Notes under the pieces: model-generated | The model's input: only the letters and a program-made list of their open reading frames with translations | What the model was told of the DNA's origin: nothing | The model's database searches: none | DNA from: Thermoflexales bacterium | Lineage (GTDB): Bacteria > Chloroflexota > Anaerolineae > B4-G1 > SLSP01 | Direction: 5' to 3' | DNA: 11,910 nt | Assembly (NCBI GenBank): GCA_015486785.1 | Contig: WFQZ01000251.1 | Location: forward strand, 1 to 11,910 | Translations under genes and position numbers: made by a program | In this document: piece after piece, positions 9,192 to 11,393 of the stretch | Layout of the letters: each line of letters opens with the position of its first letter | How positions within the stretch are numbered: the stretch's first letter is position 1

Positions 9192-11393
9192 ATGTTACAA
9201 GAACACACATTTACAGGAACGTTGGGAAAGGACACAGTGAGCCTTTCTACCGGAAAGTTGGCCCGTTTGGCGGGCGGCGCCGTGGTCGCCCGTTGTGGGG
9301 ACACGGTGCTGTTGGCTACGGCCACCATGTCACGCACGCCGCGCGAGGGGATTGACTTCTTCCCGCTCTCCGTGGACTTTGAGGAACGATTGTACGCCGC
9401 CGGGCGGATTCCCGGCTCGTTTTTCCGCCGCGAAGGCCGCCCCTCCGAAAAAGCGATTCTGACCAGTCGGCTGGTGGATCGCCCCTTGCGCCCGCTGTTC
9501 CCCAAGGACATGCGCAACGACGTGCAAGTGATCATCGTGGCACTTTCGCGCGGCGAGGAGCAGTTTATGGACACACTGGCCGTGACCGCCGCCTCGGCTG
9601 CGCTGACGATCTCCGATGTCCCCTTTGGCGGGCCGGTCGCCGCCGTGCGCATCGGCTACGTTGACGGGGAACTGGTGGTCAACCCCACCATCTCCCAAAT
9701 GGAGCACAGTTCGTTGGACTTGCGGGTGGCCGGCAGTGCCGACGCCATCATCATGGTGGAAGCCGGGGCCAACGAGATTCCCGAATCGCTGATGGTGGAC
9801 GCGATGCAACTGGCGCACCAGTCCATCCAGGACATGATCCGCGTGCAGAACGAGATGCGCGAATCGGTCGGCAAGCCCAAGCGGGATTATCCCTCCTTCG
9901 CGCCCCCGGCGGGGCTGGATGAGCGCGTCGCCGCGCTGGCCGAATCCCGCTTGCGGGAATTGCTGGAGACCACGTTGCTCAAGGGCGAGCGGTTGGAAGC
10001 TCTATCCGCCATTGAGGACGATGTCCAAGCCGCTCTGAGCGAGGAAGCCGAAGCCGCCGGTTGGTCGCCGCGTGACATTCACGAGGCTTTCGAGGGCGTG
10101 TTCAAGGCCATCGTGCGGGAACGCATCTTGGAGCAGAACCTGCGCCCCGATGGCCGCGACCAACGCACCATCCGCCCGCTGGAAGCCGAGGTACACTTGC
10201 TGCCCCGACCTCACGGCTCAGGGCTGTTCACCCGTGGGGAAACACAGGTCTTGAGCATGGCCACCTTGGGCATGCCCACCGACGAGCAGACGTTGGACAA
10301 CCTCTTCCCCGAAGAGACCAAACGCTACATCCACCACTACAACTTCCCGCCCTATTCCACCGGCGAAACTTGGCCTATGCGCGGCCCGAAACGCCGCGAG
10401 ATCGGGCACGGCGCGTTGGCCGAGCGGGCCTTGCTGCCGGTTCTGCCCGCCAAGGATGCGTTCCCCTACACCATCCGCGTGGTCAGCGAAGTGATGTCCT
10501 CCAACGGCAGCACCTCCATGGCCTCCGTGTGCGGCAGCACCCTTTCCTTGATGGATGCCGGCGTTCCCATCAAAGCTCCGGTGGGCGGCATCGCTATGGG
10601 CTTGGTGAGCGACGGCGAGCGTTATCGTGTGCTGACCGACATCCAGGGGATGGAAGATCACCTGGGCGATATGGACTTCAAAGTCACCGGCACGCGCAGC
10701 GGCATCACCGCGCTCCAGATGGACATCAAAATCAAAGGCGTGACGCGCGAAATCCTCAGCGAAGCTCTGGAGCAAGCCCGCCTCGCCCGCTTGCAGATCA
10801 TTGACGTGATTGAGCAAGCGATTTCTGCCCCGCGCGATCACCTTTCCCAATACGCGCCCAAGATGCTGAGCACCAAGATTGATCCTTCAAAGATCGGTAT
10901 GCTGATCGGCCCCGGCGGCAAGAACATCCGTGCGATCCAGGAAAAATACGGCGTGAAGATTGATATTGAGGAAGATGGCACCGTCTTCATCGCTTCCACC
11001 GGCGGAGATGGCGCACAAGAGGCCCTGGCTTACGTGGATTCTATGATGGCCGTCCCGGAGGAGGGCAAAATCTACACCGGCAAGGTCGTGCGGGTCACGG
11101 ACTTCGGCGCGTTTGTGGAAATCCTCCCCGGCACGGATGGGATGGTACACATCTCGCAACTTTCGGAGCAGCGGGTGCAGAACGTCTCCGACGTGGTCCA
11201 CGTGGGCGATGAGGTCTTGGTTATGGTGACCGGCATCGGCAGCGACAACAAGATTCGCCTCTCGCGCCGCGCGGTGCTGGAAGGCTGGAGCTTGGACGAG
11301 GCGAAGGAAAACGACCGCCCCCGCCGTTCCGGCGGACGACGCTCTGACAACGGACGACGTTCTGACAACCACAGTTCGCGGCGGCGACGGTAA
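9192..11393 (+). CDS. pnp: Polyribonucleotide nucleotidyltransferase (PNPase) with an Arg/Ser/Asp-rich C-terminal extension
   Basis: 733 aa. Two RNase PH domains, KH ([25 protein letters not shown]) and S1 ([33 protein letters not shown]). ATG 9192 is preceded by GGGGGAAGGAG. The ORF-track GTG 9123 has no RBS. The C-terminal ~45 aa ([24 protein letters not shown]) lie beyond the S1 domain. Confidence 0.94.
11334..11369 (+). repeat. 18-bp perfect-but-one tandem direct repeat inside the pnp 3' end (encodes [12 protein letters not shown])
   Basis: GGACGACGCTCTGACAAC (11334-11351) and GGACGACGTTCTGACAAC (11352-11369) are in frame and differ at one synonymous-like position (C/T). Confidence 0.85.

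What the first reader, a model, noticed from the sequence alone, without database searches (positions are those of the whole stretch)
11259..11393. PNPase carries an unusual Arg/Ser/Asp-rich C-terminal tail generated by an 18-bp tandem duplication
After the S1 domain the protein continues with ...[32 protein letters not shown]. The [12 protein letters not shown] part is encoded by two 18-bp units (11334-11351, 11352-11369) differing at one base, i.e. a recent in-frame duplication. Canonical PNPases end shortly after S1. A low-complexity, highly basic RS/RG-like tail could add RNA binding or mediate protein interactions, for example degradosome-like assembly. The repeat copy number may be variable between strains.
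Basis: seen in the sequence. Interest (0 to 1): 0.5.

Follow-up and report, generated by a model that had tools for sequence, protein, structure and literature searches.

The report
Arginine-rich disordered tail on PNPase
The RNA-degrading enzyme PNPase of this Anaerolineae-type bacterium ends in a short, floppy, arginine-rich tail that all its relatives also carry, and the 18-bp duplication inside it is a real but ordinary example of how such tails grow and shrink.

Summary
Two in-frame 18-bp units (11334-11351, 11352-11369) differ by one synonymous base and both encode GRRSDN, inside the 3' end of pnp (9192-11393).

The tail is not unusual for this lineage, and the duplication did not create it. 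All 232 Anaerolineae-type homologues that could be anchored have the same layout:
- the S1 domain;
- a nearly invariant two-helix cap, LEGW(T/S)xEEAxxxD;
- a low-complexity Arg/Gly/Ser-rich segment of 9-61 residues (median 21; 25 here), always net positive, usually ending in RR(R).

AlphaFold models the cap with good confidence (pLDDT about 78-87). Residues 712-733 score below 50, so they are predicted disordered.

In-frame tandem repeats occur in 20 of 49 tail-coding regions from other species, so slippage is the normal way this segment evolves. The nearest relative (84% DNA identity) lacks this duplication, which adds 6 residues and +1 net charge.

Arg-rich PNPase tails also occur in other Chloroflexota and in several other phyla. 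Solved PNPases and many Firmicutes lack them.

The most likely role, which is inferred, is an auxiliary electrostatic RNA-binding arm beside the KH/S1 ring. A partner-docking or condensate role is not excluded. Interest is low to moderate.

The parts
8730..8996 (+). rpsO (ribosomal protein S15), upstream partner in the usual rpsO-pnp gene pair
   Evidence: Pfam Ribosomal_S15, E 4.5e-38. The same order is seen in L081.
9192..11393 (+). pnp, polynucleotide phosphorylase, 733 aa (the mechanical ORF starts at GTG 9123)
   Evidence: NCBIfam NF008805 scores 987 bits (cut-off 471) and TIGR03591 scores 979 bits. Pfam finds RNase_PH x2, RNase_PH_C, PNPase, KH_1 and S1. The homologue consensus starts MLEEHTFT, and a Shine-Dalgarno sequence GGAAGGAGA lies upstream of ATG 9192.
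11055..11270 (+). S1 RNA-binding domain of PNPase
   Evidence: Pfam PF00575, residues 645-716 of the 756-codon ORF, E 9.6e-20. AF2 beta strands run to residue 691 in 733-aa numbering.
11265..11315 (+). Conserved post-S1 helical cap, R692-D708 ([17 protein letters not shown])
   Evidence: AF2 models helices 692-697 and 701-708, with block pLDDT of about 78-87. Among 203 unique homologue tails, W699 is kept in 200, A704 in 203 and D708 in 203. The invariant columns are listed.
11316..11390 (+). Low-complexity Arg/Ser/Asp/Asn/Gly tail, R709-R733 ([25 protein letters not shown]). It is 44% Arg, has net charge +9 and is predicted disordered.
   Evidence: Residues 712-733 have pLDDT below 50 and no secondary structure. 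Composition and charge were compared with 221 homologue tails.
11334..11351 (+). Repeat unit 1, GRRSDN (G715-N720)
11352..11369 (+). Repeat unit 2, GRRSDN (G721-N726). It has one synonymous difference from unit 1 (CGT versus CGC).
11395..11400 (+). Shine-Dalgarno-like GGGAGG, 5 nt upstream of the ATG of the downstream small ORF and 1 nt after the pnp stop codon
   Evidence: Read directly from the sequence.
11406..11582 (+). Conserved 58-aa ORF of unknown function, probably co-transcribed with pnp
   Evidence: No Pfam match. It is 84% identical and in the same position in L081, and 49-62% identical copies lie downstream of pnp in L003, L004, L010, L016 and L023.
11600..11636 (+). Intrinsic-terminator-like hairpin plus T-run that closes the pnp-small ORF unit
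   Evidence: The stem has 11 pairs and is followed by TTTGCTTGGG. No terminator-like site lies between pnp and the small ORF.

Best explanation
The feature is the normal C-terminal end of the PNPase of an Anaerolineae-type (Chloroflexota) bacterium.

After the S1 domain the protein has a short, nearly invariant two-helix cap, LEGW(T/S)xEEAxxxD. An intrinsically disordered, strongly basic, low-complexity tail follows. In that tail only composition, net positive charge and a terminal RR(R) are conserved.

The tail evolves by replication slippage, that is, by in-frame tandem duplications and deletions of short G/C-rich units. The [12 protein letters not shown] pair is one recent, lineage-specific and probably near-neutral event of this kind. 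It adds 6 residues and +1 net charge.

Mechanistically (inferred), three such tails per PNPase trimer project from the KH/S1 ring that sits over the entrance to the central channel. There they would act as non-specific electrostatic RNA-binding arms. They would raise affinity and capture rate for RNA 3' ends and might help with structured substrates. This is the role basic disordered extensions play in bacterial DEAD-box helicases and RNase E.

Shown: the repeat, the coding frame, conservation across the clade, the compositional constraint, predicted disorder, and the slippage mode of evolution. Inferred: RNA binding and its effect on catalysis.
For: - The repeat is real and in frame.
- PNPase identity is secure.
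- All 120 best full-length homologues (71-93% identity) carry the cap plus an Arg-rich tail.
- 232 of 240 homologues could be anchored. Their low-complexity part is 9-61 aa long (median 21), with 35% R, 27% G and 13% S. Net charge is never below +4 (median +7).
- The cap is nearly invariant, and positions -2 and -1 are R in 190 and 161 of 203 unique tails.
- AF2 models the cap as helical (pLDDT about 78-87) and residues 712-733 below 50 without secondary structure.
- Slippage is general. 52 of 221 tails have peptide tandem repeats. 20 of 49 tail-coding DNAs from other species have tandem repeats with periods that are multiples of three, some 100% identical (L004 30 nt x2, L012 15 nt x2.3).
- The nearest relative lacks the duplication but keeps the frame and the RRRR-stop ending.
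- The other two reading frames of the tail DNA give unrelated or stop-containing peptides.
- No RNA-level explanation was found: no Rfam hit, and the fold z-score is +0.78.
- Published analogues exist. Basic C-terminal IDRs of RhlE helicases promote RNA binding, unwinding, phase separation and RNase E contact (PMC11260450).
Against: - No experiment or direct computation here shows that the tail binds RNA.
- The window's tail contains no RGG or RG motif at all. It is richer in S, D and N and poorer in G than most orthologues, so it is an atypical member of an RGG-like class.
- The conserved terminal (P)RRR and the conserved cap could point to a specific docking function rather than non-specific RNA binding.
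- The position of the tail relative to the channel is inferred from published PNPase architecture. It was not taken from a trimer model.
Confidence: 0.55

Rival explanations
1. The tail is mainly a protein-protein docking element, a short linear motif. The conserved cap and/or the terminal (P)RRR would recruit PNPase to a partner such as RNase E/G, RNase J or Y, a DEAD-box helicase or the ribosome. Alternatively it would fold back onto the PNPase core. Either way it would organise a degradosome-like assembly from the PNPase side.
For: - The terminal RR(R) is conserved in a tail whose sequence is otherwise free.
- Arg-rich peptides are known PNPase-binding motifs, in the opposite orientation. 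These are cyanobacterial RNase E RRRRRRSSA and Caulobacter RNase E EKPRRGWWRR (PMC3964918).
- The IDR of RhlE2 is sufficient for RNase E binding (PMC11260450).
Against: - No partner can be identified from an 11.9-kb window.
- The variable part changes freely in length (9-61 aa) and sequence, which fits composition-driven binding better than a specific interface.
- The window ends HSSRRRR, which does not match the RRRRRRSSA motif.
- Terminal Arg runs would serve RNA binding equally well.
Confidence: 0.2
2. The tail drives or tunes condensate formation, that is, phase separation with RNA as in BR-bodies. It would do so through its mixed-charge Arg/Asp patterning, and repeat number would set the threshold.
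For: - Mixed-charge R/D/G patterns (GGDR, RDRDR, RRSDN) are common in orthologue tails.
- The enzyme is a trimer, so it presents three tails (established PNPase architecture).
- Bacterial helicase IDRs of similar composition phase-separate (PMC11260450).
Against: - The low-complexity part is short (25 aa here, median 21), far shorter than the IDRs shown to drive bacterial condensates.
- No test is possible with these tools.
Confidence: 0.12
3. The tail is functionally neutral. It would be a by-product of G+C-rich DNA, stop-codon drift and slippage, tolerated because it hangs off the end of the protein.
For: - Length and sequence vary greatly and repeats turn over often.
- The tail-coding DNA is 71% G+C, against 60% for the window.
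- Many PNPases function without such a tail.
Against: - Net charge is +4 or more in all 221 parsed tails. Arg is 35% while Asp+Glu is about 5%.
- The terminal RR is kept in about 90% of tails.
- No orthologue in the clade has lost the tail, over divergence down to about 57% identity.
- Neutral drift should give mixed charge and frequent loss.
Confidence: 0.1
4. The duplication, or the whole tail, is an assembly or sequencing artefact or a frameshift.
For: The source appears to be an uncultured-type genome with no second copy in the databases, so the reads cannot be checked.
Against: - The two copies differ at one synonymous base, which a stutter artefact would not produce.
- The frame, the cap and the RRRR-stop ending are shared with L081 and more than 200 homologues.
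- Comparable repeats occur independently in 20 other species.
Confidence: 0.03

Closest known systems
Canonical bacterial PNPase (E. coli Pnp, C. crescentus, S. antibioticus GpsI, M. smegmatis; solved structures)
   Same: The full domain set is present: RNase PH x2, the helical domain, KH and S1. The NCBIfam equivalog score is far above its cut-off. Gene order is rpsO-pnp.
   Different: Solved PNPases stop 5-21 residues after the position equivalent to residue ~700, against about 33 residues here. The comparison is by length only. The sequences of their tails were not printed or examined.
Basic disordered C-terminal extensions of bacterial DEAD-box helicases (RhlE1/RhlE2 of P. aeruginosa; PMC11260450)
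   Same: Both are low-complexity, positively charged, disordered extensions appended to an RNA-handling core. Both diverge fast in sequence. In RhlE the extension is shown to enhance RNA binding, unwinding, phase separation and RNase E contact.
   Different: The host enzyme differs (a phosphorolytic exoribonuclease, not a helicase). The tail here is much shorter (25 aa). No experiment exists for any PNPase tail of this type in the literature searched.
Arg-rich PNPase-recognition microdomains of RNase E (cyanobacterial RRRRRRSSA; Caulobacter EKPRRGWWRR; PMC3964918)
   Same: Each is a short Arg-rich peptide at the very C-terminus of an RNA-decay enzyme. In those systems the peptide contacts PNPase.
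   Different: Here the Arg run sits on PNPase itself, not on RNase E. The window ends HSSRRRR, and orthologues mostly end PRRR, GRRR or SRRR. The neutral SSA residues that one search shows to be critical are absent. The resemblance is compositional only.
Eukaryotic RGG/RG boxes and RS domains
   Same: The composition is Arg/Gly/Ser-rich, disordered and adjacent to RNA-binding domains. 118 of 203 orthologue tails contain RGG and 32 contain di-RGG.
   Different: The window's own tail has no RGG or RG. It has only 4 RS/SR dipeptides in 25 residues. That is too short and too sparse for an RS domain.

Membership tests
Polynucleotide phosphorylase (NCBIfam NF008805 / TIGR03591) | The whole-protein HMM score is above the curated equivalog cut-off. 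| tested here: met
   NF008805 scores 987.2 bits (cut-off 471). TIGR03591 scores 978.8 bits (cut-off 525).
Polynucleotide phosphorylase (NCBIfam NF008805 / TIGR03591) | Domain order is RNase PH - helical PNPase domain - RNase PH - KH - S1. | tested here: met
   Pfam finds RNase_PH (2 stretches), RNase_PH_C, PNPase (265-346), KH_1 (585-637) and S1 (645-716).
Anaerolineae-type PNPase tail (cap + Arg-rich low-complexity segment), as defined here | A post-S1 cap LEGW(T/S)xEEAxxxD is present. | tested here: met
   The window has [15 protein letters not shown] and D are invariant or nearly so in 203 unique tails. The cap is modelled as helical with pLDDT about 78-87.
Anaerolineae-type PNPase tail (cap + Arg-rich low-complexity segment), as defined here | The low-complexity segment is net positive and ends in RR(R). 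| tested here: met
   The window's segment has net charge +9, is 44% R and ends RRRR. The family minimum is +4, and RR occupies the last two positions in about 90% of tails.
RGG/RG-motif RNA-binding region (di-/tri-RGG or di-/tri-RG with spacers of 0-4 residues) | At least two RGG or RG units lie within 0-4 residues of each other. | tested here: not met
   The window tail has 0 RGG and 0 RG. Among orthologue tails, 118 of 203 have RGG, 32 have di-RGG and 63 have di-RG.
SR/RS domain | A long stretch (tens of residues) is dominated by consecutive RS/SR dipeptides. | tested here: not met
   There are 3 RS and 1 SR dipeptides in 25 residues, and they are not consecutive.
Cyanobacterial RNase E C4 PNPase-binding nonapeptide | The sequence RRRRRRSSA is present, with the neutral SSA residues required for binding. 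| tested here: not met
   The window ends HSSRRRR. The host protein is PNPase, not RNase E. The motif definition comes from PMC3964918.
Variable-number tandem repeat / contingency locus | Copy number differs between strains of the same species. | not testable with these tools
   No conspecific sequence was found. The exact-protein look-up found nothing. Two metagenome DNA scans gave 0 hits. The best C-terminal fragment hit was 85% identical. Only between-species variation is shown.
Intrinsically disordered region | No stable predicted structure. | tested here: met
   AF2 gives pLDDT below 50 and no DSSP elements for residues 712-733, using a 60-sequence alignment. A dedicated disorder predictor was not available.

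The most novel reading that the evidence does not exclude
In Anaerolineae, and independently in other lineages with Arg-rich PNPase tails, PNPase may carry its own scaffold. The invariant LEGW...EEA...D cap plus the terminal (P)RRR would form a docking module. It would recruit an endonuclease or helicase, or link PNPase trimers through RNA into condensates. That would replace the RNase E C-terminal scaffold of Proteobacteria and reverse the polarity of the cyanobacterial RNase E(RRRRRRSSA)-PNPase contact. Repeat number in the variable linker would then tune assembly.
Probability: 0.12. Interest if true: 0.55.

Novelty: new variant of a known kind. Interest (0 to 1): 0.22.

Why it matters
If the tail does what its composition suggests, a whole class of bacteria has equipped PNPase with a built-in disordered RNA-binding arm. 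That function is supplied in trans by RNase E's arginine-rich segments in E. coli. It would be a small but clear example of how RNA-decay machines are rewired in poorly studied phyla. It would also show low-complexity protein tails evolving by DNA slippage under constraint on composition only.

The 18-bp duplication on its own is ordinary. It is one of many similar events in this segment. It changes the tail by 6 residues, and the result (25 aa) lies within the family's range of 9-61.

In four literature searches I found no paper describing Arg-rich PNPase tails. The clade-wide architecture is therefore undescribed rather than surprising.

Tried and rejected
- **Conspecific strains, to test copy-number variation.**
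  - The exact-protein look-up found nothing.
  - Two exact DNA scans of metagenome contigs, with 35-nt and 23-nt patterns flanking the repeat, found 0 hits.
  - A protein search with the last 100 residues gave a best hit of only 85% identity.
  - The question stays open.
- **RNA-level function of the repeat region.** There is no Rfam family in the window apart from 4 tRNAs. The MFE of 11300-11420 is no better than shuffles, z = +0.78. Rejected.
- **Antisense coding.** The long minus-strand ORFs 10887-11651 and 11072-11413 have no Pfam match and overlap a strongly conserved plus-strand gene. They are shadow ORFs. Rejected.
- **Frameshift or sequencing error.** Rejected, because the frame, the cap and the RRRR-stop ending are shared with L081 and more than 200 homologues.
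- **RGG-box or RS-domain membership of the window's own tail.** Tested and not met.
- **Literature on PNPase Arg-rich tails.** Four searches found nothing specific.
- **Source genome.** Its best locus was only 75% identical, so the source genome itself was not identified. The nearest relative is GCA_053938285.1.
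Full report
**1. The observation**

Tandem Repeats Finder reports an 18-bp period at 11333-11369 (2.1 copies, 94% match, score 67). The repeat finder gives two 18-nt copies at 17/18 identity. In codon phase the units are 11334-11351 and 11352-11369. Both encode GRRSDN, and the single difference (CGC versus CGT) is synonymous.

No 18+18 tandem with at most 1 mismatch appeared in 50 shuffles of the window.

**2. What the gene is**

The protein is an unambiguous polynucleotide phosphorylase. NCBIfam NF008805 scores 987 bits against a cut-off of 471, and TIGR03591 scores 979 bits. 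Pfam finds the full RNase PH / PNPase / RNase PH / KH / S1 set.

The real start is most likely ATG 9192 (733 aa). A GGAAGGAGA Shine-Dalgarno sequence precedes it, and the consensus of 60 homologues starts MLEEHTFT.

rpsO (S15) lies just upstream at 8730-8996. That gives the usual rpsO-pnp arrangement, which is also seen in the nearest relative. The S1 match ends at nt 11270.

**3. The tail is a clade-wide feature, not an oddity**

The 120 best full-length homologues are 71-93% identical. The few that carry a source name are annotated as MAGs of Anaerolineae, Anaerolineales, Chloroflexi or Thermoflexia. All 120 continue past S1 in the same way.

A second search with the last 100 residues brought the set to 240 homologues. 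Of these, 232 could be anchored on the RLSRxAV end of S1. Each tail has two parts.

- *A conserved cap, LEGW(T/S)xEEAxxxD.* Among 203 unique tails, W is present in 200, A in 203 and D in 203.
- *A low-complexity segment.*
  - Length is 9-61 residues, with a median of 21. The window's is 25, at the 67th percentile.
  - Composition is 35% R, 27% G, 13% S and 9% P.
  - Net charge is never below +4, with a median of +7. The window's is +9.
  - R occupies the penultimate position in 190 of 203 tails and the last position in 161 of 203.

An AlphaFold2 model built on a 60-sequence alignment puts helices at 692-697 and 701-708, with block pLDDT of about 78-87. Residues 712-733 score below 50 and have no secondary structure. 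So the 'tail' is a structured cap followed by a disordered basic arm.

The window's low-complexity part is somewhat atypical in composition. It is Gly-poor (12%, 15th percentile). It is rich in Ser (20%) and in Asp+Asn (16%). It contains no RGG or RG at all, whereas 118 of 203 orthologue tails contain RGG.

**4. Distribution beyond the clade**

I scanned one genome per species and read each pnp through to its stop codon.

- *The cap.* It is present in loci labelled Anaerolineae, Caldilineales and some 'Chloroflexia' MAGs.
- *Arg-rich tails without the cap.* Within Chloroflexota they occur in loci labelled Thermomicrobiales, Sphaerobacteraceae and Oscillochloris. Outside it they occur in loci labelled Eisenbacteria, Dormiibacterota, Acidiferrales, Acutalibacteraceae, Ruminococcaceae, Christensenellales-like, Megasphaera and Selenomonadales.
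- *No such tail.* Many other Firmicutes end within about 20 residues of S1, with K/E/Q-type tails or none.

PNPases with solved structures stop 5-21 residues after the position equivalent to residue ~700. 'Canonical PNPases end shortly after S1' is therefore true of the model enzymes. But Arg-rich extensions are widespread, and their scattered distribution suggests more than one origin.

**5. How the tail evolves**

Peptide-level tandem repeats (unit of at least 4 residues) occur in 52 of 221 orthologue tails.

At DNA level, 20 of 49 tail-coding regions of at least 60 nt have tandem repeats with periods that are multiples of three. Of these, 19 come from other species and one is the window itself. 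Some are perfect, such as L004 (30 nt x 2.0, 100%) and L012 (15 nt x 2.3, 100%). L010 has a 48-nt period with 2.6 copies, and its peptide repeats RNRGGGGD about four times.

The nearest relative is L081 (GCA_053938285.1). Its pnp DNA is 84% identical and its protein 93%. It keeps the frame, the cap, DRPRR and the RRRR-stop ending. It has SGGRSNGERGS where the window has [17 protein letters not shown], so it lacks the duplication.

The GRRSDN duplication is thus a lineage-specific, probably recent slippage event in a segment where such events are routine. It adds 6 residues and +1 net charge. It did not create the tail.

**6. Alternatives at the DNA and RNA level**

- Rfam matches nothing but four tRNAs in the window.
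- The RNA fold of 11300-11420 is no more stable than shuffles, z = +0.78.
- The minus-strand ORFs over this region have no Pfam match.
- The other two plus-strand frames of the tail DNA give unrelated or stop-containing peptides.

The tail DNA is best read as protein-coding only.

**7. Most likely mechanism**

*Shown.* The region is a conserved, coding, disordered, strongly basic C-terminal arm. It is attached by a conserved helical cap to the S1 domain. Selection acts on its charge and composition and on a terminal RR(R), but not on its sequence or length.

*Inferred from established PNPase architecture.* The KH and S1 domains of the trimer form the RNA-capturing ring over the central channel. 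Three such arms would therefore sit at the RNA entry side and add non-specific electrostatic affinity for RNA.

*Inferred from published analogues.* Basic C-terminal IDRs of RhlE helicases enhance RNA binding and unwinding, drive phase separation and contact RNase E (PMC11260450). I put this explanation at about 0.55.

*Rivals.*
- A docking motif for a partner or for the PNPase core, about 0.2. It is prompted by the conserved terminus and by the fact that Arg-rich peptides of RNase E are PNPase-binding motifs in cyanobacteria and Caulobacter (PMC3964918).
- A condensate-tuning role, about 0.12.
- Neutral by-product, about 0.1. The uniform positive charge and the absence of loss across the clade argue against it.
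- Artefact, about 0.03.

**8. Comparison with what is known, and novelty**

The enzyme is a member of the PNPase family, and all defining features tested were met.

The tail works like the basic disordered extensions of bacterial RNA helicases and the arginine-rich segments of RNase E. It is not a member of any defined motif family. The window's tail fails the RGG/RG definition, the RS-domain definition and the cyanobacterial nonapeptide.

Four literature searches found no description of Arg-rich PNPase tails. I therefore class the architecture (PNPase + conserved cap + Arg-rich IDR) as an undescribed variant of a known kind. The duplication itself is ordinary.

**9. What could not be done**

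Strain-level copy-number variation could not be tested, because no conspecific sequence was found. RNA binding, partner binding and phase behaviour need experiments. A trimer model and a dedicated disorder predictor were not available.

**10. Verdict**

This is a clade-typical feature with a plausible but untested RNA-binding role. Interest is about 0.2.

Noticed in passing
window 11406-11582 (+), with GGGAGG at 11395-11400 and a terminator-like hairpin at 11600-11636: A 58-aa ORF (MINAETKILAETERYAVWSS...HFFPEEWEELVKLILAAVR) starts 13 nt after the pnp stop and has its own Shine-Dalgarno sequence. It has no Pfam match. It is conserved: 84% identical and in the same position in L081, and 49-62% identical copies lie 0.2-2.5 kb downstream of pnp in L003, L004, L010, L016 and L023. 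It looks like an uncharacterised small protein family linked to pnp in Anaerolineae.
   Followed up: partly
window 4141-4295 (-): Two adjacent, nearly identical tRNA-Arg(GCG) genes (81-bp period, 97% match) are followed by tRNA-Ser(GCT) at 4299-4390 and tRNA-Ser(TGA) at 4412-4500. This is a recent tandem duplication of a tRNA gene.
   Followed up: partly
window 5875-7287 (-): A 470-aa ORF has an SPFH/Band_7 match (E 2.6e-09), an MVP_shoulder match (E 3.2e-08) and a weak Vault_3 repeat match (E 7.8e-04). It is a bacterial protein with major-vault-protein-like domains.
   Followed up: no
L016 (JAIWHF010000021.1, labelled 'Methanosarcinales archaeon'): This contig carries an Anaerolineae-type pnp, with the LEGWTLEEA cap and a basic tail, plus the conserved small ORF. 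It is probably a mis-binned bacterial contig in an archaeal MAG.
   Followed up: no
window 1-4093 (+) and 4674-8549 (-): Gene content upstream of rpsO-pnp, in order:
- ABC ATPase and permease;
- class-V aminotransferase (cysteine desulfurase-like), NifU_N and a RidA/L-PSP protein;
- on the minus strand, a dihydroorotate-dehydrogenase-like protein with a 4Fe-4S tail, and an HD/HD_assoc phosphohydrolase (dGTPase-like).
The HD gene is also next to rpsO in L081.
   Followed up: no
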